A DNA stretch of 64,000 bases. Origin: an uncultured bacterium. Lineage in GTDB: Bacteria; Patescibacteriota; Patescibacteriia; SG8-24; DYFX01. Within the stretch, counting starts at the first letter, position 1. The number at the start of each line of letters is the position of its first letter. Under the pieces are notes generated by a model. That model saw only the letters and a program-made list of their open reading frames with translations, did not search any database and was not told where the DNA came from. The position numbers and the translations under genes were made by a program. The DNA is taken from assembly GCA_937900255.1 (NCBI GenBank), contig CALCDZ010000003.1:63149-127148 (forward strand). Reading direction: 5' to 3'. Shown piece by piece: positions 31,849 to 57,880 of the stretch.

Positions 31849-32628
31849 ATGCCGACGCGACGCTATGGACAGCATTTCCTGACCGACCGGTCGATCGTCG
31901 CCAAGATCGCCGCCGGCGCGGGCGTCTCCAAGGACGACGCCGTGCTTGAAATCGGCCCAGGGCGCGGCATCCTGACGCGGGCGCTCGCGGAGACCGCCCG
32001 CAGGGTCCTGACGGTGGAGATCGACCGGCGGCTGCACGCGCTGCTCGTGGAGGACGGGCTTCCGGGCAACGTCGAACTCTTGCGGAGCGACGCCCTGGCG
32101 CTCGAACCCGCCGACCTCGCCGCCAAGCTCGGCACGGATTGGAAACTGGTCGCCAACCTTCCCTACGAGATCACCTCGAAGACGCTCGAAAAGTTCCTGC
32201 CGATGCGCTCGCGCACCGGAACCGGCCCGACGTCCATCACGCTGATGCTTCAGAAGGAGGTAGGGGAGCGCATCCTGGCCAAGCCGGGCGCGATGAACCG
32301 CCTGGCGCTCTTCTGTGGATATTATTCCGTGCCGGCGCGGCTTTTCTCCGTCGCGCGCGGGGCGTTTTCGCCGCCTCCGAACGTCGATTCCTGCGTCATA
32401 CGTCTGGACGTCAGGGAGGACGTCGCTTTGGATGGGGATGAAGAAGCCTTGTTTTTCAGGCTGATTGAGGCGGCTTTCTCCGAAAAACGCAAGCAGATCA
32501 AGAATACGATCGGAGGACTGCTCGGTCCGGCCGCTTCCGACCGCCTCGCCGCCGCCGGGCTTTCCCTGTCCGTCCGACCGGAGGAAATCAGCTTGAATCA
32601 GTGGGTAACCTTGGCGCATCGGATGTGA
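31849..32628 (+). CDS. rsmA: 16S rRNA (adenine1518/1519-N6)-dimethyltransferase
   Basis: YGQHFL…VLEIGPGRGILT…NLPYEI motifs. Confidence 0.9.
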   Translation: MPTRRYGQHFLTDRSIVAKIAAGAGVSKDDAVLEIGPGRGILTRALAETARRVLTVEIDRRLHALLVEDGLPGNVELLRSDALALEPADLAAKLGTDWKLVANLPYEITSKTLEKFLPMRSRTGTGPTSITLMLQKEVGERILAKPGAMNRLALFCGYYSVPARLFSVARGAFSPPPNVDSCVIRLDVREDVALDGDEEALFFRLIEAAFSEKRKQIKNTIGGLLGPAASDRLAAAGLSLSVRPEEISLNQWVTLAHRM

Positions 32629-32640
32629 TACCATGGGGGC

Positions 32641-33264
32641 ATGGCCGATGATCTGCAGATCACGGACGGGCAGCCCCAAGGACACCGCGCGGGGGCGTGG
32701 GTCGTTTTGATTATGGGCATCGCCGGGCTCGGCCTCGGGATCTATCAGTGGCAAGGTTCTTTCGCCTCGGCCTTCAAGCAGGTCGGCAGCGGATTCAAGA
32801 CGCCCGACCAGGTCGAGGCCGAACGGATCGCCGGGCTGAAGACCAAGGATACGGACGGGGATGGGCTCACCGATTACGAGGAGACCTACATCTACAAGAC
32901 CAGCCCGTACCTCAAGGACTCCGATTCGGATGGCGTGGATGACAGGACGGAAGTCGAAAAGGGCAGCGACCCGAATTGCACGAAAGAATCGTGCGGCTCC
33001 GGCATCGCTTCGGCCGGGTCGGTCGGGACATCCGGAACGGGCACATCCATCAGCTCCGCTACGGGCACCGATGGTGCGGCGCAGCTCCAGGCGGACGTGG
33101 CGGACCAGCTCCTGAACCCGACGCCCGACCAGATCCGCACGCTGCTCATCCAGGCCGGCGCGAAGAGCGAGGACCTCAAAGGCATCGACGACGCCACGCT
33201 TCTCGACCTGTACCGCCAGTCCCTCGCCGAGGTCCAGCGCAAGTCATCGACGACCACTCCCTGA
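32641..33264 (+). CDS. membrane-anchored protein with thrombospondin-type-3-like Ca-binding motifs
   Basis: TM helix WVVLIMGIAGLGLGIY; DTDGDGLTDYEE and DSDSDGVDDRTE motifs; first gene of the T4SS-like cluster. Confidence 0.55.
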   Translation: MADDLQITDGQPQGHRAGAWVVLIMGIAGLGLGIYQWQGSFASAFKQVGSGFKTPDQVEAERIAGLKTKDTDGDGLTDYEETYIYKTSPYLKDSDSDGVDDRTEVEKGSDPNCTKESCGSGIASAGSVGTSGTGTSISSATGTDGAAQLQADVADQLLNPTPDQIRTLLIQAGAKSEDLKGIDDATLLDLYRQSLAEVQRKSSTTTP

Positions 33265-33273
33265 CCCCCACCT

Positions 33274-36200
33274 ATGCGCGAAAGGCCATCCGGACGGAAA
33301 ACACGCTCGCTCGCCGCCCCGCTTCTCGCGATCCTCGTCGCGACCGGCGTTTTCGGTTCAGGAATCGTCGCCCCGAGTCCTGCGCAGGCCCAGCTCATCG
33401 TCAGTGACCCTGGTGCCACCGCCGCCGGAACCGTCTCTGCCGCCGCCAACACCACCACCGCTTCCGCGCAGGTCAAGCAAAGCGCCTGGGACGTCCTGAA
33501 GATCGCTCTCACCAACACGGCCGAACTGGCCATCCTGAACGGTGCCAACTATTTCGCGCAGAAAGTCGCCTACGACACGGCCAACTACGTCGCTTCGGGC
33601 GGCAACGGCCAGACGCCGTTCTTCCACACCGAAGGCGTTCTCGATTATCTCGGCAGCACGGCCAAGGACGCCGCCGCCGACGTCCTCGGCACCCTGAGCA
33701 AGGACCCGAACACTTTCGGGAAATACGGCTTCAACCTGTGCGCCCCGAGCGATCCGCACGTCAGCCTCATCATCAAGACCGGATTCCTGAACGGCTTGCC
33801 CGGACTGTTGGGCGGCTCGACCGGAGGGCCGAAACCTTCCTGCAGCTGGGATACGATTTCGCGCAACTGGGACCAGTTCTCCCACCTCGATTCGGACACG
33901 GTGCTGAACAACGTCGGGGTGATGTTCACGCCCGGCCAGAGCTCGCTTTCGGCCGCCATCCAGGTGAACAACGCCGCGCTCGCGGAAATCAGCAAGAAGC
34001 AGGAGGCCGCCGTCAACGATTTCGTCGCCAACAACGGGTTCATCAGCAAAGTCTCCAAGATCGGCGGCAAGGTCCTGACCCCGGCCGATACCATCAAGAC
34101 CCAACTGAACCTTTCCCTCGAAAACGGCTGGAAGCAAGGGGACCAGACGGTCGCGATCAGCAACGGCGCGTTCGGTAACGCGGCCTTCGGCATCCTGCCG
34201 GCCGCTCTCCATACCTTCACGAACACCCTGGCGGAATCGATGATGAAGAAGGTGTTCGACAGGGGCCTGATCACGCTCAACGACATCCTCGGCAATAACA
34301 AGGGCGATACGGCGCTGACGTTCGATGGCGGTTCGTCTCCCGGAGGCAGGGCGTCGGCCGAGCTTTCGAACGCCTCGCTCCTGACCCCGAAGATCCTTTC
34401 GATCACCAACTATAACGCCCTGACCGATTTCGCCGCCTGCCCCGCCGGAAGCCAGCGCGGACCGGACAACTGCGTCATGGACGGACAGTTCTTCACGGCG
34501 GTCAACCGCGCGTCGCAGGGGTCGCCTCTGACCGTGCGCCAGGCAGTGGCGCAGGGGCTCTTGAAGGCGAACTGGCCGCTCCTTCCGCTGGCGCACGGGA
34601 AGAACCACGAATCGACCTGCTACAACGAGGCGTTCTGCTACAGCAACCTGGTCAAGCTCCGCAAGGCCAGCGTCCTTCCGATCGGCTGGGAACTCGCCGC
34701 CAATTCGCCCTTCAACGACGTCAGCCGGCCGATCACGCTCGCGGAAGCCATGAATCGCTTCGACGACTGTCCCACCAAGCCGGATGGCAGCGTCGACGCC
34801 TCCAAGCTGCCCGACCCCTTGCATCCCTGGTGTCACTTGATCGATCCGGAGTGGGTGCTGAAATATCCCGTCCAGATCTGCCGGCAACAGGCGCCCGGTC
34901 CGACCCTCGTGTCTTCGGAATCCCCGGCGCGCGCCCTCACTTGCGTCGATCAAGCCACGTGCATCGCCCAGGACGCTGCAGGCAACTGCGTCGGCGGCTA
35001 CGGCTATTGCGTGCGCGAGAAGAACGTCTGGAACCTGGACGCCGACGCCTGCCCGGCCGCCTACGCCAGCTGCACCACCTTCCGCCGCGCCGACGGGGCG
35101 TCGGCCTCGTACCTGTCCACCACGCTCGACAGCGGTTCGTGCAACGGACAGAACGCCGGATGCCGCCAATACAGCCAGTCGCAGAACGCCGTCCCGAACG
35201 GCGGGTTTGAGGATCTCCTGGACGGGAAAGCGCGCGATTGGACGCTCTCTCCGGGCGCCCGTCTGAGCCGCTCCGGCCTCCTGGCCGAACGCGGATTGGA
35301 CGCCGTCGGGCTCGCGAACGGTGCCGTCGCCAGCGTCGTGATCCCTTCGCTGCAGCCGTCTTCGCCATACGTGCTCTCCGCCTCCGTGCTCCAGGAGTTC
35401 GAGGCGTCCGCCCCGGTCGGCACGGTCACGCTGAAGCTGTTCCGCGCCGACGGCAGCCCTGTTTCGGCGACGGACCTCAAGACCACCTGCACGTACCGCC
35501 AAGGAGACCCCTCCGTCTCTTTGGACATTTCCGCCACGCACCTCGGCTACCTGTCCGGTTCCTGTTCGATCACGCTTCCGAACGACGCCGCGTCCGGAAA
35601 GATCGAGCTGAGCAGCACCACCGCCCAGTCCGGCAATCGCGCCTGGTTCGACGACGTCGGCTTGTACGGCGCTTCGTTCTCGGCTTCGCCGTATGACAGC
35701 CTTCTCCTGAACGGCAAGGTGCAGAAGTGCGCCTCCGACCAGGCCGGGTGCACGGACCTTGTCCGTATGTCGACCGGCACGCTCAACCTGGTGCGCGACC
35801 CGAGTTTCGAGACGCCGGACTCTTCCGGCAACCCCAAATACTGGAGCGTCCCGACCCCCGGCACGTATGAGAAGGGGACGTTCAAGGGCTTCGACGGCGT
35901 TTCCGCCATGCGTCTCGACGCGAACGGCGTAAGCCAGGACGTCACCGGGGTCTTGGCGTCCGCTTCGTACGTCTTCTCGGCCTATACCAAGCTTGGCGGG
36001 GCGGTTTCCGGCAATCCGCGGGCCCTCGTCCAGCTGTACGATACCAGCACTCCGCCTGCTCCGGTCGCTCCCACGTCCGTCACCGGCTGCCAGGTTTCCG
36101 GTACCGGCATCCGCCTCGACTTGGCGGCCGGTTCGGATTACCGGCGCGCCGCCTGCGCTTTCACGACGCCGACGGATGTCGGATACGCGCGCGTCACGCT

Positions 36201-39200
36201 CATCGCCGATAACGGCAGTTCCGCGCTGGTCGACGCCGTGCAGCTGGAGCTCTCCGTCGAACCGACCGGGTATCACGAGGCGTATCCTTCGACGGCCCAG
36301 CACGTCTACCTGAAGACCATGCCGGAGGGATTGGACTGCGCCGGTCCCGACCGCGCTCCCGAGTGCGCCAACTACGCTCCGTCGTGCCGCCGCGAAGAAG
36401 TCGGATGCGACTCCTATAAGCCGGACGACGGCGGCATCGCCATCCCTGCCGTGACGACCGCAGGCGACGCCTGCCCGACGGAGTGCGTCGGATACGATAC
36501 GTTCAAGGAAGAACCGTCGAACTTCAACGACCCTCGCTTCCCGCTGTTCCTCGTGCCGTCCACCGCGCAGAGCTGTTCGGCGGCCGAAGCCGGATGTTCC
36601 GAGTTCACGAACGTCCAGAAGCTCGCGAACGGGGGAGAGTCGAGGGAGGATTTCAGCTACCTGCGCCTGTGCGCCAAGCCGGACCAGAACGCCGGCACTT
36701 TCTACACCTGGGAAGGCAACGACTCGAAGGGGTATCAGCTCCGGACATGGACGCTCCTCAAGAGCCGCATCGCTTCGTCGCCCGTCGGGGGCTCCGACCC
36801 CACCGGCGGCAACGCGCCGTGCACCAAGCTCGCGTACGACAACGCCGGCCGCCCGGCCTGCGCCGATGATGCCGCAAGCGTCGCCGCCGCCTCCTGCCTC
36901 AAATCCGACCTGCTCGCCAATCCGGATTGCCGCGAATTCTACGACGCGGCCGGCGACATCCATTACCGCCTCTACTCCAAGACGGTCGTCGTGAGCGACG
37001 CCTGCACCGAGTATCGCATCACCAAGAGCACGGAAACGGAATGCGGCGCGCATGGCGGGTCTTGGCGCAATCAGGAATGCCATTACTTCGCGTACGCTCC
37101 GGAAAGCCAGAGCTGCCGCGCCGCGGCGGTCGGCTGCCGCGCCTATTCCGGGAACGCTTCGCGCAACGTGCGCGTCGCCCTCGCCGCCGATTTCGAATCC
37201 GGCACCACCGGCGGATGGGTTTCCGCGCCGGGCGGCGGGGCCACGACGGACGTCGCGAACAGCAACGAATCCGTGGCCGCCGGCGGCCACTCCCTCAAGG
37301 TCAGCCGCGCCACCGTCACGAAGGACGTCTCCTCCATCGTCAAGAAAGGGAAGTCCTACCTGCTGACCTTCTGGGCGAAGGGCACCGGCGACCTGACGAT
37401 CGCGTTCAGCTCCGCCGGCGACCGGGCATTCACGTTCAATCGCGTGACGGGGCAGCCCGCGCCCGTCGCGCTCGGCACCGAATGGAAGCCGTACCAGGTC
37501 GGCCCGGTTTCGGCGGTCAATGCTGCGGCGTTCTCCGCCGCCGGGGCCGCCGGAAACGAGCAATTGACGGTCTCGCGTTCCGGGTCCGGTTCGCCGCTCT
37601 TCTATCTCGACAACATCGAGCTGCGCGAAGTGACCGATGACCTGTACCTCATCCGGGACAGCTGGCAGACCCCGGCTTCCTGCGACCGGACGCCGTCGGG
37701 GGATTCTTCCCCGCAGTACATGCTCGGGTGCCGGGGCTATCGCGATCGCTCCTCCCGGAGCGTCGCCCTCAAATCCTTCGATCGCATCTGCCGTCCGGAA
37801 GCGGTCGGCTGCGAAGCGATGTATGATACGCGCCACACCGCCTCTCCTTTCCCTCAGACGTTCGGGGCGGTCTGTTCGCTCGGCGCGGCCTGCGCGCCCT
37901 CTGCCGGGGCCGTGACTTGCCCGTGCAAGATCGCCGGCCAGACGGTCTGCGAGGCGGCTTCCGGCGCGTCCACCTGCCGTTATGACATCGATGATTCCGT
38001 GCCCGCTTCGCGCGTCAGCCCTTCGGGCGACACGGTCCGCATCCCGGCCGACGGCGTCACCTATCTCGTGAACGACGCCCGGTACGCCTGCACGTCGGAC
38101 AACGTCGGCTGCACGATGATGGGGGACAAGACCTTGAACCGCGAGCGTACGGCGGTCCAGGGCTGGAAGACCGTCTACTTCAAGAACGATCCGGCCACGT
38201 ACGCCGACACCCTCTGCAGGAAGACCGAAGAATACTGCCAGGCATACACCAGGGGAGCGGACGGGTCTTCGGCCTATTTCAAGGATCCGGAGCTCCGTAC
38301 CTGCGAGTTCAAGGAGAACGTCGCCGGTTATTCCGGTTGGTTCAAGACCGGGACGAGCGACCCGTGCTACGCGGATTATCTGCAAGCCGGCACCCAGTAC
38401 GGAATCTGGAAGAACTCGGACGCCCCGTACGCCGCCTGGGCCGGCCAGTGCGAACCCCAATACGACCAGTGCAAGGAGTTCGTCGATCCCCAGGACACCA
38501 GCACGCTGCACCCGAACGGCCAGCCGTACTACGCCATCAAGAACGCGCGTCTCGACAGCTCCTCCTGCCAGAACCGCGCCAGCCTGACCAAGTCGCCTTC
38601 GGGAGCCGACAGCGCTTCCGCCTGCGTGCTCTTCTGGCAGACCGACGACCTTCTCAAGACGTTCGATGCCGCCGCCACCTACCAGGCTTCCGACGCCCAG
38701 CGCGGCGGGCTCGTCAGCGCCGTGAGCAGCGACCGCAATGACGCCAACGTCGTCCTGAAGGTGGCACGCGACCGCCAATGCGGCGAATGGCTCGATTGCC
38801 GTTCGAGCGAAACCGTCTTCAATCAGACGTCAGGGCAGTACCAGAACGTCTGCACGTCTTTCGGGCTGTGCGCCCAATATGAACGCGTCGGCAACACGAC
38901 CCGCTGCGTACGTTACGTGGACAGCGCCTACACGGGACAGACCCTCAGCACCAAGATTTATCAGGCGCGTGATACCGGCTGGAAGGGGCTTGAATACACC
39001 AGCTACGCCATCCCGAACCAGTATCCGGTCAACGAGCTCGTGACGATGGACGTGAGTTCCGGCACGCGTTCTTCCAAGCCGGACCTCCGTCTCGTGCGCG
39101 TCAGGGGCGCCTGCGCCGGAGCGTATGGCTCCGCATGCGGACCCTCGGACGATCCAGGCACCTGCCTTGGTCCCTCGAACGCCAGGAAGTGCGTCTATCC

Positions 39201-42273: not shown

Positions 42274-42280
42274 CCCACCT

Positions 42281-44956
42281 ATGAAGACGCTCAGCCGCCT
42301 CATCGACACGATCAAGACGCGCTTGTCCGGGAAACATGCCCTTCCCCGCGTCTTGGGGCTGCTCGCGATCGGCCTGATCGTCTTCGTCCTGCCTGAAGCG
42401 GCGCATGCCTGCGGCACGTTCGACGTCGGATGCTACGTCGGACAGGCGATCATCAAGATCTTCGAGCTGTTGGCGGCGCTGATGGGGTACCTGCTGGTCC
42501 TCGAAGTCTCGGCCCTCATCAGCGTGGCGCAATACGCCAACTTCGTCTCTCCGGGCCCGACGGTGGTGCAGATCGGCTGGGTCGTCACCCGGGACCTGGC
42601 CAACATGTTCTTCATCGTCTTCATGCTCGTCATCGCCTTCTCGACCGTCATCGGCGGGCCGGCGGAGAAGTATTCCTACCGCAGCAACCTCCAGAAGCTC
42701 CTGGTCATGGCAGTCGTCATCAACTTCTCGAAGACGATCGTCGGGCTGCTCATCGACATGAGCCAGGTGCTGATGCTGACCTTCGTGAACGGCTTCAAGG
42801 ATGCGGCGGCCGGAAACTTCCTTTCGGCCTTCCAGATCCAGAAGCTGCTCGAGCTCTCGGACGGCACGAACGGCATCGACTTCGGACTGGTGCTGGCGAT
42901 GATGCTGGCGTTCATCCTGGCCGCCATCGCCGCCTGCGTCGTGCTCATCATGCTGGTCATGATGACGTTCCGTATCGTCATGCTCTGGATCCTGATCATC
43001 TTTTCTCCCATCGCGTTCCTCACGAGCGCTTTCCCGATGGGATCCGGGTTCACCGGGAGGTGGTGGGGGATGCTCAAGCAGTACCTGGTGAGCGGACCGA
43101 TCATCGCGTTCTTCCTGTGGCTGGCGCTCGCGAGCGCGCAGCGGAGTCCGGATGGCCTGGCCAACGAGAAGTACCAGAACGGGGGAGGATTCGCCCAGCC
43201 TTCATCCGCTGCCGGAGCCGAAGCGTCGGCGGCCGGGAACTTCCAGGGTTACGCCATCCCTTCGAGGGCCGGGCGTGCCGACACTATCCTGAGCCTCGTG
43301 ATCATGACCTGCATCATGTTCGCCGGGTTGAAGTTCGCGGCGGAAGACACGAAGGTCATCGGATCGGGCTTCGCGAAGCAGGTCAAGGGACGGGTCGAAG
43401 GCGCGTTGAACACGATCGCCCGCGCGCCTGATCGTTTCGCCAGGGATCAGGTCAGCGGCGCCTTCAGGAGCGTCGGCGGTTCGACCATGAAGGGTATCGG
43501 TACCGGTTTGGCACGCGTGCCGCTTCTCGGTGGGGTCGGTCGCCGCCTCGCCGCCAGGGGCGAGCAGCTCGCGGAAGGCCGCCGCGCGGAACTCGAAAAG
43601 CGTTGGGTCGGTTCCGCCAAGGACCTGGCGAAGTACAATCCTGGTGAATTCGGTTCCAAGATGCGCGTCGGTTTCGCCACCGCCGGACAGATCAAGGAAA
43701 CGGCCGAAGCCGCCCTTGCCAACCCGAAGGCCATGGAGGCGCTCAAGAAGTCGGGCGGCGCCGAAATCGTGCGCGATCGTCTCAAGGCAGCCTCTGAAAA
43801 GGATCCGGCCCAGAAGGGCGCGTACGACAATTTCATGAAGGCCAATTGGGATCTCGCGAAGGACGCCAAGGAGAAGAACGCGATCCTGGGGAAGTTCAGC
43901 GGGGAAGAGGCGCGGAAGTACATGAGCGCGCCCCAGATGACGGAAGAGCACGTCTCCCAGTTCGGCAAGAACACCTTGACCGACATCCTCGCGAACGGCA
44001 AGGGCGAACAGCAGGCTGCGGTCCTTGGGGCCTTCAGCGCCAAGAACGCCAGCGGCGAACTCGGCAAGTTCATGAAGGAGAGGCGCATGACCTATGCCGA
44101 CATCCCGGCCGAGGCATACGCGCAGGCCGGCGCGTCCGGCAAGTCCTTGAAGCTGAGCGCGCTGGAAGCGGCGGAAAAGGATCCCGCGCTGATGAGGAGA
44201 TTCACCGAGGACGCGAAAATGCGCGACCAGCTGGCGCCGGTGGCCAGGGACAATTTCGCGGCCGCCGTGACCGACATCGAGAAGGCGCAGAAGCTCGCCA
44301 TCCTCTCCCAACTGGGCGGCGCCACGGCTGCGGACTTCGGTTCGCCGCCGGCCGGCAGCCCGCCCGGGACCCCGAGCGACATCGAGGTCGGCATCGGCCA
44401 GCTGTCAGCCAAGGCGCTCAATGACTTGGAACGGAGCACGCCGACCGACAACCCTGCCGCGCAGGCCGGTCTCGCGAAGATCCTGGAGGCCGCCGTCAAG
44501 AACGGCAGCACCGACCTGGTGCAAGCCATCCAACGCAGCCCGAACCTGTCCACGTACGTGCCGCTCACCGTCGCCCGCGAGGCGGAGAAATCGACCGGCG
44601 GCTACAGCGCCAGCGTCAACAGCGCCGCGAACACGAAGCTCGCCGAACTTGATCGTCGCAGGAGGGATGCGGCCAGCAGTACGGATCCGGGCGTGAAGAG
44701 CGCGGCCTTGGGAATAGCCGATGACATCGAGCAGATCCGCGAAGCGATGGATGGGGCCAAGAAAGCGGCCAGGGAATTGGCGGCCGTCGAAAAGAACATC
44801 GCCACGCTCAGGGAAAACTTCGCGGACCATCAGAAGGGGGGCAGGGCGGATGACATGGCCAAGGTCGCCGCTGAGATCAAGACCGCGCTCAAGGAGGCTT
44901 TCGAGAAGAAAGAGAAGCTCGCGAAGGCCAACGATAGGCTCAAAGAGGTGAGTTAA
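42281..44956 (+). CDS. TrbL/VirB6-like polytopic membrane protein with about 590-aa coiled-coil-rich C-terminal extension
   Basis: N-terminal about 300 aa with 6-7 TM helices in VirB6/TrbL-like arrangement; long hydrophilic K/E/A-rich tail; start 8 nt after giant gene stop. Confidence 0.6.
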   Translation: MKTLSRLIDTIKTRLSGKHALPRVLGLLAIGLIVFVLPEAAHACGTFDVGCYVGQAIIKIFELLAALMGYLLVLEVSALISVAQYANFVSPGPTVVQIGWVVTRDLANMFFIVFMLVIAFSTVIGGPAEKYSYRSNLQKLLVMAVVINFSKTIVGLLIDMSQVLMLTFVNGFKDAAAGNFLSAFQIQKLLELSDGTNGIDFGLVLAMMLAFILAAIAACVVLIMLVMMTFRIVMLWILIIFSPIAFLTSAFPMGSGFTGRWWGMLKQYLVSGPIIAFFLWLALASAQRSPDGLANEKYQNGGGFAQPSSAAGAEASAAGNFQGYAIPSRAGRADTILSLVIMTCIMFAGLKFAAEDTKVIGSGFAKQVKGRVEGALNTIARAPDRFARDQVSGAFRSVGGSTMKGIGTGLARVPLLGGVGRRLAARGEQLAEGRRAELEKRWVGSAKDLAKYNPGEFGSKMRVGFATAGQIKETAEAALANPKAMEALKKSGGAEIVRDRLKAASEKDPAQKGAYDNFMKANWDLAKDAKEKNAILGKFSGEEARKYMSAPQMTEEHVSQFGKNTLTDILANGKGEQQAAVLGAFSAKNASGELGKFMKERRMTYADIPAEAYAQAGASGKSLKLSALEAAEKDPALMRRFTEDAKMRDQLAPVARDNFAAAVTDIEKAQKLAILSQLGGATAADFGSPPAGSPPGTPSDIEVGIGQLSAKALNDLERSTPTDNPAAQAGLAKILEAAVKNGSTDLVQAIQRSPNLSTYVPLTVAREAEKSTGGYSASVNSAANTKLAELDRRRRDAASSTDPGVKSAALGIADDIEQIREAMDGAKKAARELAAVEKNIATLRENFADHQKGGRADDMAKVAAEIKTALKEAFEKKEKLAKANDRLKEVS

Positions 44957-44974
44957 CGACTTCGGGACCGTCGT

Positions 44975-46783
44975 ATGGATCTCCTCCAGAAAATCCGAAA
45001 GCTTCCGGAGCCGGTCCAGGACTATCTGTATTCCGAGTCCTTGCTGCACGGGAATGGGCAGGTCATCGAACGGAACGCCCTCGATTTTGAGGGCCAAAAA
45101 ACCTTCCTCCGCCTCCTCCAGCGTGTCTTCGCCCGCGAGGTGCCGATGTCGGATCTTGAAAAAGAAGCATCCGCGCTCGTCGGAGGAGACGAAGGTAAAA
45201 GCAAGGCGTTGGCGCGCGATATCGCGGGCTACTGCCTCCTGCCGCTCGACCGCTGGCTCGGCGATGTTTCAGGTTATGTCCGTCGTCTCGGCGGGGACGT
45301 CTCGAGCTATCCGGCCGAGCGCATCCAGATGGTCGAGCGCACGCGCGACGAGGCGGCGTCCGAGGTCGTCAGTTCTTCCGACGGCGCGGCCGAAGCGACG
45401 GCGCGCGCCCGCGAGAGGATGCGGGACGTGGTCACGTCCTTCTTGGCAGGCATCCGCACGGAAGAGCAGGCGCTCGAGGTCCTGACGCGGTCCGACAAGA
45501 TCGGCGGCGTCGGGCTCGACCCGTCCGCCGCCCGGTCAGTGATCGATCATGCCAAGGAGGAACAGCGCACGGTCGTCATCAAGGAAGCGCCGGCCGTCGG
45601 CGCCCCGCCTGCGGCCGCTCCGCAAGCGCCATCCGCCCCCGCGCCGAAGCCGAAGGAGGACTTCGTCATGATCGCGCCGGAAGACGAGGAGGAGATCGCT
45701 CTGTTGAAGGAAAAGGCATCGTCGGCCAAAGGTACGCAGCAGGCAGACGAGACTGCGCGGCGCATTCAAGCCTCGATCGATCGCATCTACCTCGATTCCG
45801 GCCTCGCGACCGACGACGAGGATTTCTCGAAGCGCGTCAAGACGGTCATCGGCAACCGCCTCCGCGACGTGCGCGATCAGATGGAGACGCTTGAGACGAT
45901 GGTGCAGCCGAAGGAACTCGGCGGGCTCGGTCTCGGCCAGGAATCGGCGCGGCGCCTCCTTGGCATCATCCAGGGCAGCCTTCAGGAGGTCCATGAAGCG
46001 CATGCCGAGCGGATCGAAGGGGAAAAAGCCGCTTGGGTGGAGAAGGAACGCCGCAAGGCGGCCGAGGCACCCGCCCAGGAAGCGGCCGCTCAGGAATCGG
46101 ACCTGGAGCGCCTGTATCGCAGCATCGTCGCGAAATCGAAAAAAGCCACCAAAATGGCCGCCGTTGCCGCGCCCGTCGCAGCGCCGACCCCGGCGATGGC
46201 TGCGGCGCCCGCTTCGAAATTCCCGAGTCCTCCGTCGAACCTGCCGGTTTCCGACGTCCATATCATTCCACCGCACTTGCGCGCGCCCGTGACCATCCCG
46301 CTCCCGGAGGTCGAGATCGCCCCCGTTCGGACGTTCATGCCGCAGCCGCCGCTGACCCTCGTCAAGCCCGTGCCCGGCGCTCCCGCCCCCATGCCGGCCT
46401 TTTCGGTCGTGCCTGGGCAGCCGAACCGCCCCCGCATGGAAGACGTCAAGGCCGCTCCGAAGCTGACCGGACCGGTCGAGGAGCTTCGGGCCATCACCGT
46501 CGTCGATTTCCGCCGGCTCTCCAAGGACCCGAAGGAGGCCTGCATGAAAGTGAAGGACAAGATCGATCTTTTGGCCGAGCAGTCCTATACCCGAAGGACC
46601 GAAGGTCTCAAGGCCTGGTCGGCTTCCGAGGTCGTCCGTACCTATCTGGAACTCATGCGCGAGGGCCTGAACGGAATGCCGTTCAAGGAGGCGGTCGCGG
46701 CCCGCGAGGCGGCCAAGAGGCCGTTCCTGACCGCGGAGGAGTTCCAGGCGATCGGGGAGCTGAGCAGACAACTGCGATATTAA
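44975..46783 (+). CDS. hypothetical 602-aa protein of the T4SS-like cluster (no TM, Pro/Ala-rich linkers)
   Basis: Long GC3-biased ORF, no recognised motifs, no Walker box. Confidence 0.55.
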   Translation: MDLLQKIRKLPEPVQDYLYSESLLHGNGQVIERNALDFEGQKTFLRLLQRVFAREVPMSDLEKEASALVGGDEGKSKALARDIAGYCLLPLDRWLGDVSGYVRRLGGDVSSYPAERIQMVERTRDEAASEVVSSSDGAAEATARARERMRDVVTSFLAGIRTEEQALEVLTRSDKIGGVGLDPSAARSVIDHAKEEQRTVVIKEAPAVGAPPAAAPQAPSAPAPKPKEDFVMIAPEDEEEIALLKEKASSAKGTQQADETARRIQASIDRIYLDSGLATDDEDFSKRVKTVIGNRLRDVRDQMETLETMVQPKELGGLGLGQESARRLLGIIQGSLQEVHEAHAERIEGEKAAWVEKERRKAAEAPAQEAAAQESDLERLYRSIVAKSKKATKMAAVAAPVAAPTPAMAAAPASKFPSPPSNLPVSDVHIIPPHLRAPVTIPLPEVEIAPVRTFMPQPPLTLVKPVPGAPAPMPAFSVVPGQPNRPRMEDVKAAPKLTGPVEELRAITVVDFRRLSKDPKEACMKVKDKIDLLAEQSYTRRTEGLKAWSASEVVRTYLELMREGLNGMPFKEAVAAREAAKRPFLTAEEFQAIGELSRQLRY

Positions 46784-46799
46784 ATGGTAGGATGAGGCC

Positions 46800-47228
46800 A
46801 TGGCCCAGTTCGTCGTCCCGCAATTCATCGACGTTGAAGACAAGATCATCGGACAGGTGACGGTCCGCCAGTTCGGCATCATGATGGTCGATGCGCTCGT
46901 CTGCGTCATCGTCTACAAGCTCCTGAGCCTGGCCGTCGCGATCGCCATCGACGTGGCGCTGCTCGCGGCCGGGCTGACGCTCGCCTTCGCGCGCGTCAAC
47001 GGGCAGCCGTTCCACTTTTTCCTCCTGAACGTGCTTCAGACCTGGCGTCGGCCGATGATCCGCGTCTGGAACAAGGAACTTTCCGACGCGGAGATCATCG
47101 CCCTTTCGAAGGTCGAACCCCCGCCCCCGGCCCCGCGCCGCGTCTATAAGGAAGCGCCGACCACCTCTCGGCTCTCCGAGCTGGCGCTCATGGTCAATAC
47201 CGGCGGCGTCTACAATCCCGAGGAATAG
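46800..47228 (+). CDS. PrgI/VirB3-like small membrane protein
   Basis: N-terminus FVVPQFIDVEDKIIGQVTVRQFGIMMV matches the PrgI-family pattern (E-x-K-I-x-G-x-T-x-RQ) followed by two TM helices. Confidence 0.55.
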   Translation: MAQFVVPQFIDVEDKIIGQVTVRQFGIMMVDALVCVIVYKLLSLAVAIAIDVALLAAGLTLAFARVNGQPFHFFLLNVLQTWRRPMIRVWNKELSDAEIIALSKVEPPPPAPRRVYKEAPTTSRLSELALMVNTGGVYNPEE

Positions 47229-47247
47229 GGAATTCCAGGAGGAAGCT

Positions 47248-47946
47248 ATGGCGAATGAGCAGCTGATGCAAAGCAAGAAGCTCGCCGGGTCGAAACCCCA
47301 GGTCTCGACCCAGCAGTTCTTGGATATCGCCGAAATCCGGGAGGACGTGGTCGTCATGAAGGACGGCACGATGCGGGCGGTGCTGCTGGTCTCGAGCATC
47401 AACTTCTCGCTGAAGTCCGAGGACGAGCAGGAAGCGATCATCCAGGGCTACATCTCCTTCCTGAACTCGCTCGATTCCCCGGTGCAGATCCTCATCCAGT
47501 CGCGCAAGCTCGACATCGACGACTACCTGAACCGCCTCAAGGAGCACGAAAAGACCCAGTCCAACGACCTCCTGCGGAACCAGATCGTCGATTACCGGCA
47601 GTTCGTGAAGGAGCTGGTCGAGCTCGGGGAGATCATGCAGAAGAAGTTCTTCGTGATCGTGCCCTACAACCCGGCCTCGTCCAAGCGCAAGGGCTTCTTC
47701 GCCCGGATGGGAGAGGTGCTCTCGCCGCTCGTCTCGGCCCGCCTCCGGGAAGAGCAGTTCCGCCAGCGCAAGAAGGACCTCATGGTCAAGGTGGATTCCG
47801 TCAGGGCCGGATTGAACTCGATGAGCCTGATGAGCGCGACGCTCGACACCCAAAGCCTGATCGAGCTTTACTACACGGCCTATAACCCCCAGTCGATGCA
47901 GTCGCAGAAACTGGAGAAGGTCGACAACGTGCGACTTGAACCGTAG
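47248..47946 (+). CDS. virB4: VirB4/TraC-family ATPase, N-terminal fragment (CagE_TrbE_VirB region)
   Basis: DVVVMKDGTMRAVLLVSSINFSLKSEDE and FFVIVPYNP align with the VirB4 N-terminal domain; ends with TAG, 2 nt before the next ORF in a different frame. Confidence 0.65.
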   Translation: MANEQLMQSKKLAGSKPQVSTQQFLDIAEIREDVVVMKDGTMRAVLLVSSINFSLKSEDEQEAIIQGYISFLNSLDSPVQILIQSRKLDIDDYLNRLKEHEKTQSNDLLRNQIVDYRQFVKELVELGEIMQKKFFVIVPYNPASSKRKGFFARMGEVLSPLVSARLREEQFRQRKKDLMVKVDSVRAGLNSMSLMSATLDTQSLIELYYTAYNPQSMQSQKLEKVDNVRLEP

Positions 47947-47948
47947 AC

Positions 47949-49844
47949 ATGGCGTTCAACCCCGCTGACGCAAAACAGGAACGGCCCGCCGGGAGCGCGG
48001 CCAAGCCCAAGCTGACCGCCGCCGAGCGGCAGCGTTTGGCGCAGGAAGAGCGCATCAAGCTCGAGGAGGAACGCACGTACCGCAAGGGCGTCGTCACCAT
48101 CCGCGACCTGATCGCACCGGCCGCCATGGAGGTCAAGCCGAACCACATCCGGCTCGGCGATCTTCACGTACGCACGCTTTTCGTCGTGACGTATCCGCGC
48201 TACCTGACGCTCGGCTGGTTCACGCCGATCATCAACTTCTCGGCGACGATGGACGTCGGCATGTTCTTCTATCCGGTCCAGCCGGAGATCATCCTCAAGC
48301 AGCTCAAGAACAAGGTCGGCGTGCTCGAGGCCCAGATCATGTCCGACGCCGAGAAGGGCGCGGCGCGCGACCCGCTGCGCGAGACCGCCTTGCGCGACAT
48401 CGAGAAGCTGCGGGACGACCTGACGCAAGGCGTCGAGCATTTCTTCCAGTTCGCCTTGTACGTCACGATGTACGCCCGGTCAGAGAAGGAACTCGACGAC
48501 CTCTCCAACCAGGTCGAGGGCATGTTCGGTTCCAAGCTGATCTACACCAAGCGGGTGCTCTATCAGGCCGAGCAGGGCTTCAACTCGACCCTGCCGATCG
48601 GCAATGACGAGCTGATGATCACCTTCAACATGAACACGAGCCCGATCGCTTCGGGCTTCCCGTTCGTCTCGGCCGACCTCACCTCCGACAACGGCATCCT
48701 CTACGGCATCAACCGCCACAACAACAGCCTGATCCTGTTCGACCGCTTCTCGCTCCAGAACGCGAACGCGATCGTCTTCGCCACTTCCGGCGCGGGCAAG
48801 AGCTACGCCGTGAAGCTTGAGGTGCTCCGCTCCCTCATGGTCGGCACCGAGGTCATCATCATCGACCCGGAGATGGAGTATAAGCACCTCTCCGACGCCG
48901 TCGGGGGCACCTACATCAACATCTCGCTGGCGTCCGATTCCAAGCTCAACGTCTTCGACTTGCCGCGCCCCGTGGGGGAGGACGTCCGTTCCGAGGACAT
49001 CATCCGCTCGGCCGTCATCGCCGTGAAAGGCCTGATGCGCATCGTGTTCGGCGAGGTCACCACCGCCGAGGATTCGATCATCGACCGGGCGCTTCTCGAG
49101 ACCTATGCCAAGAAGGACATCGTGCCGGGCGTCGACCTGGCGACCGTCGAGCCGCCCGTGATGTCCGATTTCCAGCAGGTGCTCGAAGGCATCACCGGCA
49201 CGGAAAACCTCCAGATCAAGCTCCGCAAATATACCGAGGGCACGTTCGCCGGGCTGCTCAACTCGCCGACGACCGTCGAGATGGATAACCCGCTCGTGAC
49301 CTTCAGCGTCCGGGACCTGGAGGACGAGCTGCGTCCGCTCGCCGTCTATACCATCGTCAATTACATCTGGAACGTCGTGCGTTCCGAGCGCAAGAAGCGC
49401 GTCCTGGTGATCGACGAGGCCTGGTGGCTCATGCAGCACGACGACTCCGCCAAGTTCATCTTCGCCCTGGTCAAGCGCTGCCGCAAGTATTTCCTGGGCG
49501 TCACGACCATCACGCAGGACGTCAACGATTTCCTGCGCTCGCCGTACGGCCAGGCGATCGTCACCAACTCGGCGATGCAGTTCCTCCTGAAGCAGTCGCC
49601 CGCGGCCATCGATCTCATCCAGAAGACCTTCCTGCTGACGGAAGGGGAGAAGTACCTGCTGCTCGAGGCGGGCGTCGGCGAAGGCATCTTCTTCGCCGGC
49701 CCGAGGCACGCCGCCATCAAGGTGGTCGCCTCGTACGCCGAAGACCAGCTGATCACCTCCGACCCCCGGCAGCTGCTCGAAATCGAGAACGCCAAGCGGG
49801 AGCTGGAGAAGCAGCTCTTGTCCGGTGCTGAAACCCAAGCCTGA
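47949..49844 (+). CDS. virB4: VirB4/TraC-family ATPase, middle plus C-terminal ATPase portion
   Basis: VTYPRYLTLGWFTPIINF region, Walker A FATSGAGKSY, Walker B-like VLVIDEAWWL. Confidence 0.85.
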   Translation: MAFNPADAKQERPAGSAAKPKLTAAERQRLAQEERIKLEEERTYRKGVVTIRDLIAPAAMEVKPNHIRLGDLHVRTLFVVTYPRYLTLGWFTPIINFSATMDVGMFFYPVQPEIILKQLKNKVGVLEAQIMSDAEKGAARDPLRETALRDIEKLRDDLTQGVEHFFQFALYVTMYARSEKELDDLSNQVEGMFGSKLIYTKRVLYQAEQGFNSTLPIGNDELMITFNMNTSPIASGFPFVSADLTSDNGILYGINRHNNSLILFDRFSLQNANAIVFATSGAGKSYAVKLEVLRSLMVGTEVIIIDPEMEYKHLSDAVGGTYINISLASDSKLNVFDLPRPVGEDVRSEDIIRSAVIAVKGLMRIVFGEVTTAEDSIIDRALLETYAKKDIVPGVDLATVEPPVMSDFQQVLEGITGTENLQIKLRKYTEGTFAGLLNSPTTVEMDNPLVTFSVRDLEDELRPLAVYTIVNYIWNVVRSERKKRVLVIDEAWWLMQHDDSAKFIFALVKRCRKYFLGVTTITQDVNDFLRSPYGQAIVTNSAMQFLLKQSPAAIDLIQKTFLLTEGEKYLLLEAGVGEGIFFAGPRHAAIKVVASYAEDQLITSDPRQLLEIENAKRELEKQLLSGAETQA

Positions 49845-49849
49845 AACCT

Positions 49850-50431
49850 ATGACTGCCCGAAGACGCGCCATCCTGATCGTCATCCTGGCCCTGCTGCTC
49901 GTCGCGATCCTGGCGACGGCGATCTGGCTCCTTTTCCGGAAGGCGAAGCCGACTTCCATCTACGTCCCGCAGCGCGTGGATTCCGCGACCTCCCAGCCGG
50001 CGGCCGTGCCCGCTATGCCCAACCCGCTCGCTCCGGCTGTCCAGGTTTCGGCCGGAAGCACGGCCGCCGCCCAAATGGCCGAGCTGTTCGCCGAGCGTTA
50101 CGGGAGCTACTCCAATCAAGGGAACTTCGGGAACCTCAAGGATCTCCTGCCCGTCATGACCGCCACGTATCGCGCGGCGACGGAAGCCTACCTCGCCGCC
50201 GCCAAGCCGTCCGACGCGGCCGATTACCAAGGAGTGACCAGCGTGAAGATTTCCACCAAAGTCCGGTCGTATGACGCTTCGGCCGGCACGGCCACGGTCG
50301 CCGTCATGCTGCAGCAGCAGAAGAGCGCCGGCGCTTCCGTCACGCCGTCCATCAGTTACCGCTCCCTCAAGATGACCCTCAAGAAGTCCGGTTCCGATTG
50401 GAGGGTCGATTCCGCCGCTTGGGAGAATTGA
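49850..50431 (+). CDS. bitopic membrane protein, possibly an NTF2-like (VirB8/TcpC-like) fold
   Basis: Single N-terminal TM (ILIVILALLLVAILATAIWLL) plus about 150-aa extracytoplasmic domain; fold assignment is inference. Confidence 0.45.
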   Translation: MTARRRAILIVILALLLVAILATAIWLLFRKAKPTSIYVPQRVDSATSQPAAVPAMPNPLAPAVQVSAGSTAAAQMAELFAERYGSYSNQGNFGNLKDLLPVMTATYRAATEAYLAAAKPSDAADYQGVTSVKISTKVRSYDASAGTATVAVMLQQQKSAGASVTPSISYRSLKMTLKKSGSDWRVDSAAWEN

Positions 50432-57736: not shown

Positions 57737-57813
57737 TGGTGAGCCCAGAACGATTCGAACGTTCGACCTCAACCTCCGCAGGGTTGCGCTCTATCCAGCT
57801 GAGCTATGGGCTC
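57737..57813 (-). tRNA. tRNA-Arg (anticodon GCG)
   Basis: Acceptor GAGCCCA/TGGGCTC, D-arm GCTCAGCTGGATAGAGC, anticodon loop CTGCGGA, T-loop TTCGAAT, CCA encoded. Confidence 0.75.
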
Positions 57814-57829
57814 GCTCAGGTACCCGGCC

Positions 57830-57858
57830 AGACTACCGCATGGGCCACGGTCTGTCAA
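57830..57858 (-). promoter_or_regulatory. tRNA-Arg promoter TTGACA-17-TAGTCT (minus strand)
   Basis: -10 ends 16 nt before tRNA 5' end; back-to-back with recG promoter. Confidence 0.5.
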
Positions 57859-57862
57859 TGCC

Positions 57863-57871
57863 TGCTATACT
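57863..57871 (+). promoter_or_regulatory. TG-extended -10 TGcTATACT, 9 nt upstream of recG ATG (leaderless)
   Basis: Seen in sequence. Confidence 0.45.
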
Positions 57872-57880
57872 GTCGTCCGT

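What the first reader, a model, noticed from the sequence alone, without database searches (positions are those of the whole stretch)
32641..50431. Minimal monoderm-type T4SS-like machine fused to a giant adhesin: Ca-motif protein – 2999-aa giant protein – VirB6/TrbL-like – 602-aa unknown – PrgI/VirB3-like – VirB4 – bitopic protein (– ComF)
Eight co-directional genes sit with 2-20 nt spacers, or overlaps and near-identical TGA-CCCnACCT-ATG junctions. They encode the conserved inner-membrane core of Gram-positive-type type IV secretion systems (VirB3/PrgI, VirB4, VirB6/PrgH). No relaxase, VirD4 coupling protein, VirB7/9/10 or replication genes are present, so this is not a conjugative element. 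Instead the module is headed by a 9-kb gene for a Cys-rich secreted protein with lectin-like CBM modules, a Ca-binding-motif protein and a 602-aa protein with no recognisable domains. It is followed by the DNA-uptake gene comF. Comparable VirB4/VirB6 plus giant-protein clusters have been noted in episymbiotic CPR bacteria. Their function there is unresolved (host attachment, effector or DNA translocation), so this is a candidate undescribed secretion/uptake apparatus.
Basis: partly seen in the sequence, partly recalled or inferred. Interest (0 to 1): 0.85.

Follow-up and report, generated by a model that had tools for sequence, protein, structure and literature searches.

The report
Patescibacteria chromosomal type IV secretion locus
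This is a typical example of the chromosomal, non-conjugative type IV secretion system already described in ultrasmall Patescibacteria (CPR) bacteria, and what is worth following up is a conserved 3000-residue secreted protein and an unannotated cytoplasmic protein that travel with its VirB6 channel subunit.

Summary
VirB4 is split into a 232-aa TrsD-like N-domain (47248-47946) and a 631-aa ATPase. The T4SS calls are supported as follows:
- PrgI/VirB3 scores above the Pfam cut-off.
- VirB4 scores above the NCBIfam CD1110 cut-off.
- The 193-aa bitopic protein is weakly VirB8/PrgL-like.

The 64-kb window holds no relaxase, coupling protein or mobile-element marks. The flanks are housekeeping genes.

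The system is not undescribed. It matches the Patescibacteria T4SS of Wang 2023 and Quinonero-Coronel 2025, including the ABY1-class context of ksgA, comF, recG and radA.

Three points appear to be new:
- ksgA, the 207-aa Ca-motif protein and the ~3000-aa secreted, Cys-rich, CBM-bearing protein form a near-invariant trio. A VirB6 gene follows within 10 kb in 23 of 40 informative loci, sometimes without VirB4.
- The 602-aa protein belongs to a large unannotated family. Elsewhere it is split into a VirB6-linked and a PrgI-linked half.
- comF or radA follows the core in 29 of 30 loci.

Function is untested. I favour contact-dependent DNA import over effector export. An adhesin role for the giant protein is unproven.

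The parts
31849..32628 (+). ksgA/rsmA (16S rRNA adenine dimethylase). It is a conserved upstream neighbour, not a functional part.
   Evidence: PF00398 E 3.4e-47. It lies upstream of the giant-protein gene in 60 of 63 giant-seeded loci.
32641..33264 (+). 207-aa bitopic protein with one N-terminal TM helix (aa 17-35) and two extracellular thrombospondin-type-3 Ca-binding motifs. It is an obligate partner of the giant protein and a candidate membrane anchor for it.
   Evidence: TSP3_bac E 4.4e-5 at 23.7 bits, against a cut-off of 25. The motifs DTDGDGLTDYEE and DSDSDGVDDRTE are present. It lies directly upstream of the giant gene in 70 of 72 loci.
33274..42273 (+). 2999-aa Sec-secreted protein that is non-repetitive and disulfide-rich (110 Cys, about 45 invariant across the family). 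It has one CBM_4_9 glycan-binding domain (aa 1304-1408). The rest has no detectable homologue.
   Evidence: The signal peptide ends in AQA-Q and there is no other TM helix and no LPxTG. CBM_4_9 is found in 14 of 16 family members. The only PDB profile hits are CBM22/CBM4. Homology is collinear down to 26-27% identity. Self-BLAST finds no internal repeats.
42281..44956 (+). Extended VirB6 with a polytopic membrane domain (aa ~20-355) and a 530-aa helical-repeat/coiled-coil tail. The tail is probably cytoplasmic, judged by the positive-inside rule; this is an inference.
44975..46783 (+). 602-aa soluble all-alpha protein of unknown fold with three ordered blocks joined by Pro/Ala-rich linkers. 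It is always placed between VirB6 and PrgI and is a candidate cytoplasmic bridge or adaptor.
   Evidence: It has no Pfam, NCBIfam or PDB match. The AF2 model has pLDDT 79.5. The family has 3158 representatives at E<=1e-3. In L128 it is split: the N-part sits next to VirB6 (hhalign 4e-8) and the C-part next to PrgI (1e-22). Two genes are present in 11 of 30 loci.
46800..47228 (+). PrgI/VirB3-like small membrane protein (142 aa, hydrophobic hairpin at aa 20-50).
   Evidence: PF12666 E 5.3e-8 at 33.7 bits, against a cut-off of 27.
47248..47946 (+). TrsD-like protein, the separately encoded N-terminal domain of VirB4 (232 aa).
   Evidence: NCBIfam TrsD NF041427 1.6e-8. It also matches the VirB4 N-terminus in NF045975 (residues 93-233) and NF045971 (residues 2-120). 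PF26593 TraC-like is recorded on its orthologues. It is conserved as a separate gene in all related loci.
47949..49844 (+). VirB4 ATPase (631 aa, CD1110/MPF-FATA type) lacking its N-domain.
   Evidence: NF045971 2.3e-102 at 343.6 bits against a cut-off of 325, covering residues 166-728 of 752. P-loop_TraG 7e-28. PDB 4ag5 VirB4 7.4e-45. It is 29-36% identical to VirB4 on monoderm plasmids and 69-91% identical to ABY1 MAG orthologues.
49850..50431 (+). 193-aa bitopic protein, probably VirB8/PrgL-like (one N-terminal TM helix plus an extracytoplasmic domain).
   Evidence: PF04335 VirB8 E 2.5e-4 at 21.4 bits, against a cut-off of 23.2. The top PDB hit of the family profile is PrgL 7aed at E 0.0065. 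Its position after virB4 is conserved.
50466..51113 (+). comF (ComFC-type phosphoribosyltransferase-like competence protein). It is a conserved downstream neighbour and may be functionally linked.
   Evidence: TIGR00201 comF 5.9e-22, GntX 3.6e-22. Pribosyltran plus a double zinc ribbon. comF follows the core in 17 of 30 loci and radA in 12 of 30.
57806..59908 (+). recG. This is context typical of the ABY1 class.
   Evidence: RecG_wedge, DEAD and Helicase_C. The ABY1 linkage is reported in PMC12102498.
59949..61256 (-). radA. This is context; it takes the place of comF next to the T4SS core in other lineages.
   Evidence: KaiC/AAA_25/Lon_C/zinc-ribbon architecture. radA adjacency in 12 of 30 loci.
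61299..62609 (-). 436-aa protein with a signal peptide, a VirB2-like T4SS pilin domain and a Cys-rich C-terminal domain carrying M15/VanY-like motifs. It is a possible distal component of the system.
   Evidence: PF18895 T4SS_pilin 6.1e-8 at 33.1 bits, against a cut-off of 26.6. NF045849 pilin-like 2.1e-5. VanY only at E 0.22; the SxHxxGxAxD and ExWH motifs were read from the sequence.

Best explanation

Shown by the tests here:
- The membrane core has four parts: an extended VirB6, a PrgI/VirB3 protein, a VirB4 ATPase split into a TrsD-like N-domain and the ATPase body, and a probably VirB8/PrgL-like bitopic protein.
- The locus lies in housekeeping DNA with no relaxase or coupling protein in the window.

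Inferred:
- The 602-aa soluble protein is a cytoplasmic bridge between VirB6 and the VirB3/VirB4 module. Its two halves are separate genes in other genomes, and each stays with one of those partners.
- The 207-aa Ca-binding bitopic protein and the 2999-aa Sec-secreted, disulfide-rich, glycan-binding protein form the extracellular part that works with VirB6 at the surface of the host cell.
- A VirB2-like pilin with a peptidase-like domain, 11 kb downstream, may also belong to the system.

Favoured mechanism, inferred and about 0.35 likely: the machine acts at the epibiont-host contact to import DNA, like H. pylori ComB or the archaeal Ced system. VirB4 would be the only motor, and the imported DNA would be handed to ComF, RadA and RecG. 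Effector export is nearly as likely.
For: Identity of the core:
- PrgI PF12666 scores above its cut-off.
- VirB4 matches NF045971 above its cut-off and PDB 4ag5 at 7e-45.
- The 232-aa protein matches TrsD and the VirB4 N-domain.
- The 193-aa protein hits VirB8 and PrgL weakly by two independent routes.

Context:
- The rest of the window is housekeeping: tRNA synthetases, nusA, yidC, groEL, prfA, ksgA, recG and radA. GC content is even.
- The same order occurs in Uhr-, Falkow-, Magasanik- and Veblenbacteria MAGs and in a complete 1.17-Mb chromosome.
- This matches published descriptions (PMC12102498; PMC10633639).

Link between the giant protein and VirB6:
- The spacer is 7 nt here and is short or overlapping in relatives.
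- In VirB6-seeded loci the giant gene is adjacent in 23 of 59 and within 10 kb in a further 12.
- In genomes with two VirB6 paralogues, one stays in a g207-giant-VirB6 module flanked by metabolic genes, with no VirB4 nearby.

g602 as a bridge: the evidence is the split-gene pattern.

DNA import:
- comF or radA follows the core in 29 of 30 loci.
- The composition (VirB2-like, B3, B4, B6, B8, with no VirD4, VirB11 or relaxase) is what ComB would be without its outer-membrane parts (PMC12857230).
- VirB4 has a partial hit to CedB.
- The PNAS perspective raises T4SS-mediated nucleotide acquisition.
Against: - No experiment bears on this locus. Direction and substrate are unknown, and reviews call the function of the Patescibacteria T4SS completely unknown.
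- Conserved adjacency can be inherited synteny. ksgA is just as tightly linked and is surely not functionally related.
- In 17 of 40 giant-seeded loci no VirB6 was seen downstream, 8 of them with at least 6 kb of sequence examined. In 24 of 59 VirB6-seeded loci there is no giant gene upstream.
- The loci are phylogenetically related, so these counts are not independent events.
- The VirB8 call is below Pfam's cut-off.
- VirB6 itself gets no direct Pfam hit.
- A coupling protein could be encoded outside the window. PMC12102498 finds VirD4 homologues far from virB4 in many genomes.
- In S. epibionticum the ComEC competence route is dispensable while the T4SS is essential, so any DNA-import role would not run through classical competence.
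Confidence: 0.7

Rival explanations
1. It is the same Patescibacteria T4SS but working outward. It would export proteins (effectors or lytic enzymes) into or onto the host bacterium without a coupling protein, as the Bordetella Ptl and Brucella VirB systems do. The giant protein and the pilin would act as contact or penetration devices.
For: - Wang 2023 and reviews favour effector delivery as one option.
- Systems lacking a T4CP that export proteins exist (PMC12857230).
- The pilin gene carries a peptidase-like domain.
- The Saccharibacteria locus has essential cell-wall hydrolases.
- The VirB6 tail is a large helical-repeat platform that could recruit substrates.
Against: - No candidate effector genes, chaperones or secretion signals were identified in or next to the cluster.
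- The conserved neighbours are DNA-processing genes (comF or radA in 29 of 30 loci), not toxins.
Confidence: 0.3
2. The T4SS core is as described, but the giant protein and the 207-aa protein are not part of it. They would be an independent cell-surface structure, such as an envelope or S-layer-like glycan-binding protein. Their gene pair sits next to ksgA by ancestral synteny and only happens to neighbour the T4SS in this lineage.
For: - The tightest partners of the giant gene are ksgA (60/63) and g207 (70/72), not VirB6.
- 17 of 40 informative loci show no VirB6 downstream.
- 22 VirB4 clusters have no giant gene within 10 kb.
- Tight spacing extends to clearly unrelated housekeeping genes.
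- The protein is a slowly evolving, non-repetitive orthologue, unlike typical adhesins.
Against: - Where two VirB6 paralogues exist, one stays glued to the giant gene in a module flanked by metabolic genes.
- VirB6 lies within 10 kb in 23 of 40 and 35 of 59 loci, across GC contents from 31 to 64%.
- The short giant-virB6 junction is conserved.
Confidence: 0.3
3. It is a conjugative element or a decayed ICE whose relaxase and coupling protein lie outside the window.
For: - VirB4 is of the MPF-FATA conjugation lineage.
- A tRNA-Ser gene lies just after comF.
Against: - No relaxase, T4CP, integrase or replication gene lies within 32 kb upstream or 13 kb downstream.
- GC content is even across the window.
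- The same chromosomal neighbours recur in dozens of distantly related genomes, with VirB6 identity down to 30%.
- Relaxases are rare in Patescibacteria and seldom near virB4.
Confidence: 0.03
4. It is a pilus or adhesion organelle only. The VirB4 machine would assemble VirB2-like pili for attachment and translocate nothing, as proposed for Bartonella Trw.
For: - A VirB2-like pilin gene is nearby.
- Pilin arrays are common and essential in Patescibacteria T4SS loci.
- The Trw precedent is described in PMC12857230.
Against: - Only one pilin-like gene was found. It lies 11 kb away on the opposite strand and is fused to an enzyme-like domain.
- This reading does not explain the conserved comF/radA linkage or the large VirB6 tail and g602.
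Confidence: 0.1

Closest known systems
Patescibacteria-clade T4SS, ABY1-class arrangement (Quinonero-Coronel et al. 2025, PMC12102498)
   Same: - It has VirB4 with a separate TrsD-like gene, PrgI/VirB3, VirB6 and a VirB8-like protein (rare, and mostly found in ABY1).
- A VirB2-like pilin lies nearby.
- There is no relaxase or T4CP near virB4.
- It is chromosomal, with ksgA upstream and comF, recG and radA downstream.
   Different: Nothing in the core differs. The paper does not describe the ~3000-aa secreted protein, the 207-aa Ca-motif protein or the 602-aa family as components, and it states that no adhesins were detected.
Southlakia epibionticum T4SS, SEML1_0006-0019 (Wang et al. 2023, PMC10633639)
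   Same: - It has an extended VirB6 with a helical-repeat (ARM-like) tail.
- PrgI, a ~290-aa protein and a ~610-aa VirB4 are in the same order.
- It has an NTF2/VirB8-like protein and T4SS_pilin genes.
- There is no relaxase or coupling protein in the locus.
   Different: - The Saccharibacteria locus has two VirB6-like genes, a 300-aa PrgI, large M15/M23 and lysozyme/CHAP hydrolases, and a six-gene pilin array.
- Its annotation table lists no giant secreted protein and no g602-like gene.
- It lies near dnaA/dnaN/recF rather than ksgA/comF.
MPF-FATA conjugative T4SSs of Gram-positive plasmids (pGO1/pSK41/pIP501 TrsC-TrsD-TrsE; pCF10 PrgH-PrgI-PrgJ-PrgL with the upstream adhesin PrgB)
   Same: - The VirB3-TrsD-VirB4 order matches pGO1.
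- PrgI, CD1110-type VirB4 and a PrgL-like VirB8 are shared.
- There is no outer-membrane core.
- As in pCF10, surface-protein genes lie upstream of the channel genes on the same strand.
   Different: - There is no relaxase, T4CP or VirB1 hydrolase in the cluster, and it is not on a mobile element.
- The giant protein has no LPxTG motif or polymer-adhesin domain.
- VirB4 is at most 36% identical.
Helicobacter pylori ComB DNA-uptake T4SS and the archaeal Ced DNA-import system
   Same: - VirB4 is the only ATPase, and there is no VirD4, VirB11 or relaxase.
- It is genomically and functionally linked with competence and recombination proteins.
- VirB4 has a partial hit to CedB.
   Different: - ComB has VirB7/9/10 for the outer membrane and hands DNA to ComEC.
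- No uptake has been shown for any Patescibacteria T4SS.
- This is a resemblance of composition and context only.
Omnitrophota giant genes next to secretion systems (West-Roberts et al. 2023, bioRxiv 10.1101/2023.11.21.568195)
   Same: A very large secreted protein is encoded next to a multi-subunit secretion or pilus system in an ultrasmall, probably host-dependent bacterium.
   Different: The phylum is different, the machinery is T2SS/T4P-like, and the proteins are much larger and unrelated.

Membership tests
Patescibacteria-clade T4SS (MPF-FATA-derived) | VirB4 ATPase of the monoderm (CD1110/MPF-FATA) type | tested here: met
   NF045971 scores 343.6 bits against a cut-off of 325. PDB 4ag5 matches at 7.4e-45. 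P-loop_TraG matches at 7e-28.
Patescibacteria-clade T4SS (MPF-FATA-derived) | VirB4 falls within the Patescibacteria VirB4 clade | tested here: inconclusive
   No tree was built. Identity is 69-91% to VirB4 of ABY1 MAG loci and at most 36% to any plasmid VirB4. This is consistent with the clade but is not a phylogeny.
Patescibacteria-clade T4SS (MPF-FATA-derived) | A separate TrsD-like gene (VirB4 N-domain homologue) lies next to virB4 | tested here: met
   The 232-aa protein matches TrsD NF041427 at 1.6e-8 and the N-termini of the VirB4 models. It lies directly upstream of virB4 with a 2-nt gap.
Patescibacteria-clade T4SS (MPF-FATA-derived) | PrgI/VirB3 homologue | tested here: met
   PF12666 scores 33.7 bits against a cut-off of 27.
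Patescibacteria-clade T4SS (MPF-FATA-derived) | VirB6/TrbL polytopic membrane protein | tested here: met
Patescibacteria-clade T4SS (MPF-FATA-derived) | VirB8/PrgL-like bitopic protein | tested here: inconclusive
   PF04335 scores 21.4 bits, under the cut-off of 23.2. The top PDB hit of the family profile is PrgL 7aed at E 0.0065. No structure model was made.
Patescibacteria-clade T4SS (MPF-FATA-derived) | Chromosomal, with no relaxase or coupling protein near virB4 | tested here: met
   All other ORFs of at least ~180 aa in the 64-kb window that were scanned are housekeeping or unannotated. None hits relaxase or T4CP families. The rest of the genome was not seen.
Patescibacteria-clade T4SS (MPF-FATA-derived) | ABY1-type context (comF, recG, radA; ksgA nearby) | tested here: met
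   ksgA lies 12 nt upstream and comF 34 nt downstream. recG and radA lie within 10 kb.
Conjugative T4SS / ICE | Relaxase, type IV coupling protein and element borders (integrase, att sites, deviating composition) | tested here: not met
   None is present in the window. Chromosomal synteny is conserved across many genomes.
ComB/Ced-type DNA-import T4SS | Experimentally shown VirB4-dependent DNA uptake | not testable with these tools
   Only composition and context are available: there is no VirD4, VirB11 or relaxase, and comF or radA follows the core in 29 of 30 loci.
LPxTG-anchored conjugation adhesins (PrgB type) | C-terminal LPxTG sortase signal and a polymer-adhesin domain | tested here: not met
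   The 2999-aa protein has no [LIV]Px[TSA]G motif. No adhesin Pfam domain is found in 16 family members.

The most novel reading that the evidence does not exclude
The ~3000-aa secreted, disulfide-rich protein, its 207-aa Ca-binding membrane partner, a dedicated extended VirB6 and the N-half of the g602 family form a previously unrecognised extracellular and envelope-spanning module of the Patescibacteria T4SS. This module would be the missing counterpart of the cell-wall or outer-membrane complex and adhesin of other T4SSs. It would dock onto host glycans and conduct host DNA or other macromolecules to the VirB4 motor. The g602 family (more than 3000 sequence clusters, no annotation) would be a new core cytoplasmic T4SS subunit linking VirB6 to VirB3/VirB4.
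Probability: 0.3. Interest if true: 0.75.

Novelty: new member of a known kind. Interest (0 to 1): 0.45.

Why it matters
The Patescibacteria T4SS is the first T4SS shown to be essential for the growth of its owner, and its function is openly described as unknown.

This locus adds no new kind of system. The comparative data gathered around it give three testable leads:
- a conserved giant secreted protein and its small partner that stay with a VirB6 paralogue even when VirB4 is elsewhere;
- a very large unannotated protein family that sits between VirB6 and VirB3/VirB4 and occurs both fused and split;
- near-universal adjacency of the core to comF or radA in this class, which points to DNA handling.

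Each lead could be examined in the genetically tractable Saccharibacteria model or by structure prediction of complexes.

Tried and rejected
1. Direct Pfam and NCBIfam searches of the 891-aa, 602-aa and 2999-aa proteins gave nothing except one CBM.
2. PDB sequence searches with the giant protein, alone and as a family profile, gave only CBM22/CBM4 hits.
3. A PDB profile search with the VirB6 family was swamped by coiled-coil hits to the tail.
4. Foldseek of the g602 model against the PDB found no significant match; the best hit had E 0.79 and was TFIIB-like. Ten long members of the g602 family have no Pfam domain.
5. The third homologue search, with giant-protein residues 41-1240, returned only 9 partial proteins. 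That was too shallow for a reliable model, so the second structure job went to VirB6 instead.
6. The context look-up for the 100%-identical g602 protein P0121 failed. The source record was therefore not identified beyond MGnify MGYP000287599479 on a 255-kb contig.
7. The afdb50 fold library was not available.
8. The promoter/terminator scan was uninformative.
9. A frameshift explanation for the 232/631 split was rejected because the split is conserved in all related loci.
10. A conjugative element was rejected because the context is housekeeping and the synteny is conserved.
11. The 326-aa gene after the giant-linked VirB6 in L046 shows no detectable similarity to g602, so a g602 N-half is not always recognisable there.
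12. The literature search did not confirm prior reports of giant-protein/T4SS clusters in CPR.

Full report
**Observation**

The region 32641-51113 holds nine co-directional + strand genes followed by comF. Spacers are 9, 7, 18, 16, 19, 2, 5 and 34 nt. No genes overlap inside the cluster. Two junctions share TGA-CCC(CC)ACCT-ATG. That exact motif is not conserved in relatives, although short pyrimidine-rich spacers are. Equally tight spacing (-4 to 34 nt) extends upstream through ksgA, an MFS transporter, sua5, an epimerase and a prfA-like gene. Spacing therefore does not define the operon. A consensus scan for promoters and terminators gave nothing above shuffled expectation. The only notable site is a 13-bp hairpin across the comF start codon.

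**What the genes are**

| Gene | Coordinates | Result |
|---|---|---|
| 142 aa | 46800-47228 | PrgI/VirB3: PF12666, 33.7 bits against a cut-off of 27 |
| 631 aa | 47949-49844 | VirB4 of the monoderm CD1110 type: NF045971, 343.6 bits against a cut-off of 325, aligned to model residues 166-728; PDB 4ag5 at 7e-45 |
| 232 aa | 47248-47946 | Matches TrsD and the first ~120-230 residues of VirB4 models, so VirB4 is split |
| 193 aa | 49850-50431 | Bitopic; VirB8 just under Pfam's cut-off; family profile's best PDB hit is PrgL at E 0.0065 |
| 207 aa | 32641-33264 | One TM helix and two thrombospondin-type-3 Ca motifs |
| 2999 aa | 33274-42273 | Secreted, Cys-rich, one CBM_4_9 |
| 602 aa | 44975-46783 | Soluble, all-alpha, no match to any family or solved fold |

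- **Split VirB4.** The split recurs in every related locus (224-241 aa plus 624-670 aa), so it is genuine.
- **Giant protein.** It has a Sec signal peptide ending in AQA-Q, no further TM helix and no LPxTG. It has 110 cysteines, about 45 of them invariant across the family. It has no internal repeats. Apart from one CBM_4_9 domain (14 of 16 family members), it has no detectable similarity to any Pfam family or solved structure.
- **602-aa protein.** Its AlphaFold model has pLDDT 79.5.

**Context**

Everything else in the window is housekeeping: valS, tyrS, argS, nusA, yidC, groEL, prfA, sua5, ksgA, recG, radA and tRNAs. GC content is even at about 63%. No relaxase, coupling protein, integrase or replication gene was found. 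A 436-aa gene at 61299-62609 (-) encodes a VirB2-like T4SS pilin domain (PF18895 above its cut-off). It is fused to a Cys-rich domain with VanY/M15-like motifs, for which support is weak.

**Relatives**

A scan of one genome per species with a VirB6 family alignment returned 80 loci. All are Patescibacteria and include Uhr-, Falkow-, Magasanik- and Veblenbacteria, which belong to GTDB class ABY1 (my own knowledge).

- The order VirB6-g602-PrgI-TrsD-VirB4-VirB8-like is present in all 30 informative loci. comF (17) or radA (12) comes next in 29 of 30.
- A reciprocal scan of metagenome contigs was seeded with the giant protein. ksgA lies upstream in 60 of 63 loci and the 207-aa gene directly upstream in 70 of 72.
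- VirB6 lies downstream in 23 of 40 informative loci: 10 adjacent and 13 at 0.7-8.8 kb. Of the other 17 loci, 8 show none within at least 6 kb.
- From the VirB6 side, the giant gene is adjacent in 23 and within 10 kb in 35 of 59 loci.
- In some genomes a VirB6 paralogue stays in a g207-giant-VirB6 module that is followed by pfkB, ahcY and metK. The VirB4 cluster with another VirB6 lies elsewhere.
- The g602 family is large: 3158 50%-identity clusters at E<=1e-3.
- In 11 of 30 loci g602 is two genes. In L128 the N-part sits after VirB6 and the C-part before PrgI, separated by unrelated genes.

**Comparison with the literature**

The Patescibacteria T4SS has been described, and several of its genes are essential in Southlakia epibionticum (PMC10633639). 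A 2025 survey reports VirB4, TrsD, PrgI, VirB6, rare VirB8 (mostly in ABY1) and VirB2-like pilins. It also reports lack of relaxases, proximity to ksgA, and linkage to comF, recG and radA in ABY1 (PMC12102498). This window is an instance of that pattern.

The survey says no adhesins were detected. None of the papers I read mentions the giant protein, its small partner or the g602 family. The function of the system is called completely unknown, with effector delivery and nucleotide or DNA acquisition both proposed (PMC11665869).

**Mechanism**

Shown: a monoderm-type translocon with VirB4 as the only ATPase in the locus, located on the chromosome.

Inferred:
- g602 bridges VirB6 and VirB3/VirB4, on the split/fused-gene argument.
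- g207 and the giant protein form a surface module that works with VirB6.
- Direction is import. The composition equals ComB without its outer-membrane parts (PMC12857230), and the core is almost always followed by comF or radA.

I put the identity at about 0.85-0.9, the giant protein's membership in the system at about 0.5-0.6, DNA import at about 0.35 and effector export at about 0.3.

The main caveat is that conserved adjacency in related genomes can be inherited synteny, as the ksgA linkage shows.

**Verdict**

This is a new member of a known kind. Interest is moderate and rests on the accessory-gene leads rather than on the T4SS itself.

Noticed in passing
window 61299-62609 (-): A 436-aa protein has a signal peptide, a VirB2-like T4SS pilin domain (PF18895) and a ~290-aa Cys-rich C-terminal domain with SxHxxGxAxD and ExWH motifs. 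VanY matches only at E 0.22. It may be a fusion of a pilin with a cell-wall peptidase, reminiscent of the essential M15/M23 protein in the S. epibionticum T4SS locus.
   Followed up: partly
window 50451-50481 (+): A 13-bp (8 GC) hairpin followed by a T-rich stretch covers the comF start codon. It could be a terminator or attenuator separating the T4SS genes from comF, or an element that occludes translation initiation.
   Followed up: no
L128:20172-21410 and L128:24940-26364; also L024, L049: The 602-aa protein of the window corresponds to two separate genes in 11 of 30 related loci. The N-terminal part stays next to VirB6 and the C-terminal part next to PrgI.
   Followed up: yes
L046, L064, L040, L035, L062, L074 (genome-contig loci): A ksgA-g207-giant-(~230 aa)-VirB6-(~330-440 aa) module is followed directly by metabolic genes (pfkB, ahcY, metK) with no VirB4. 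The same MAG can hold a second VirB6 elsewhere (L031 and L046).
   Followed up: partly
L004, L006, L007, L011-L013 and others: Many species-representative records titled 'uncultured Gammaproteobacteria bacterium' carry this Patescibacteria-specific locus. The record titles look like placeholders or mislabels.
   Followed up: no
window 33358-38778 (-) and other long antisense ORFs: An 1806-aa open frame runs antisense to the giant gene, and several 200-450-aa antisense frames cross the cluster. These are expected artefacts of 63-67% GC, not genes.
   Followed up: no
window 22001-24000: This stretch has the highest GC (67%) and a strong negative AT skew (-0.28). It coincides with a Wzy_C/O-antigen-ligase-like polytopic membrane gene at 22268-23659.
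   Followed up: no
window 3200-4342 and 9789-11441: One gene encodes a surface protein with a SpaA_2 prealbumin-like domain. Another encodes a histidine kinase with a 7TM N-terminal sensor. Both are envelope or signalling genes in an otherwise housekeeping stretch.
   Followed up: no
window 42281-42440 (VirB6 N-terminus): After the first TM helix the family keeps a P-x-x-A-x-A-C motif, followed in this protein by a second Cys (C44 and C51). This is an extracytoplasmic Cys pair in a protein that otherwise has almost no cysteine, encoded next to the very Cys-rich giant protein.
   Followed up: no
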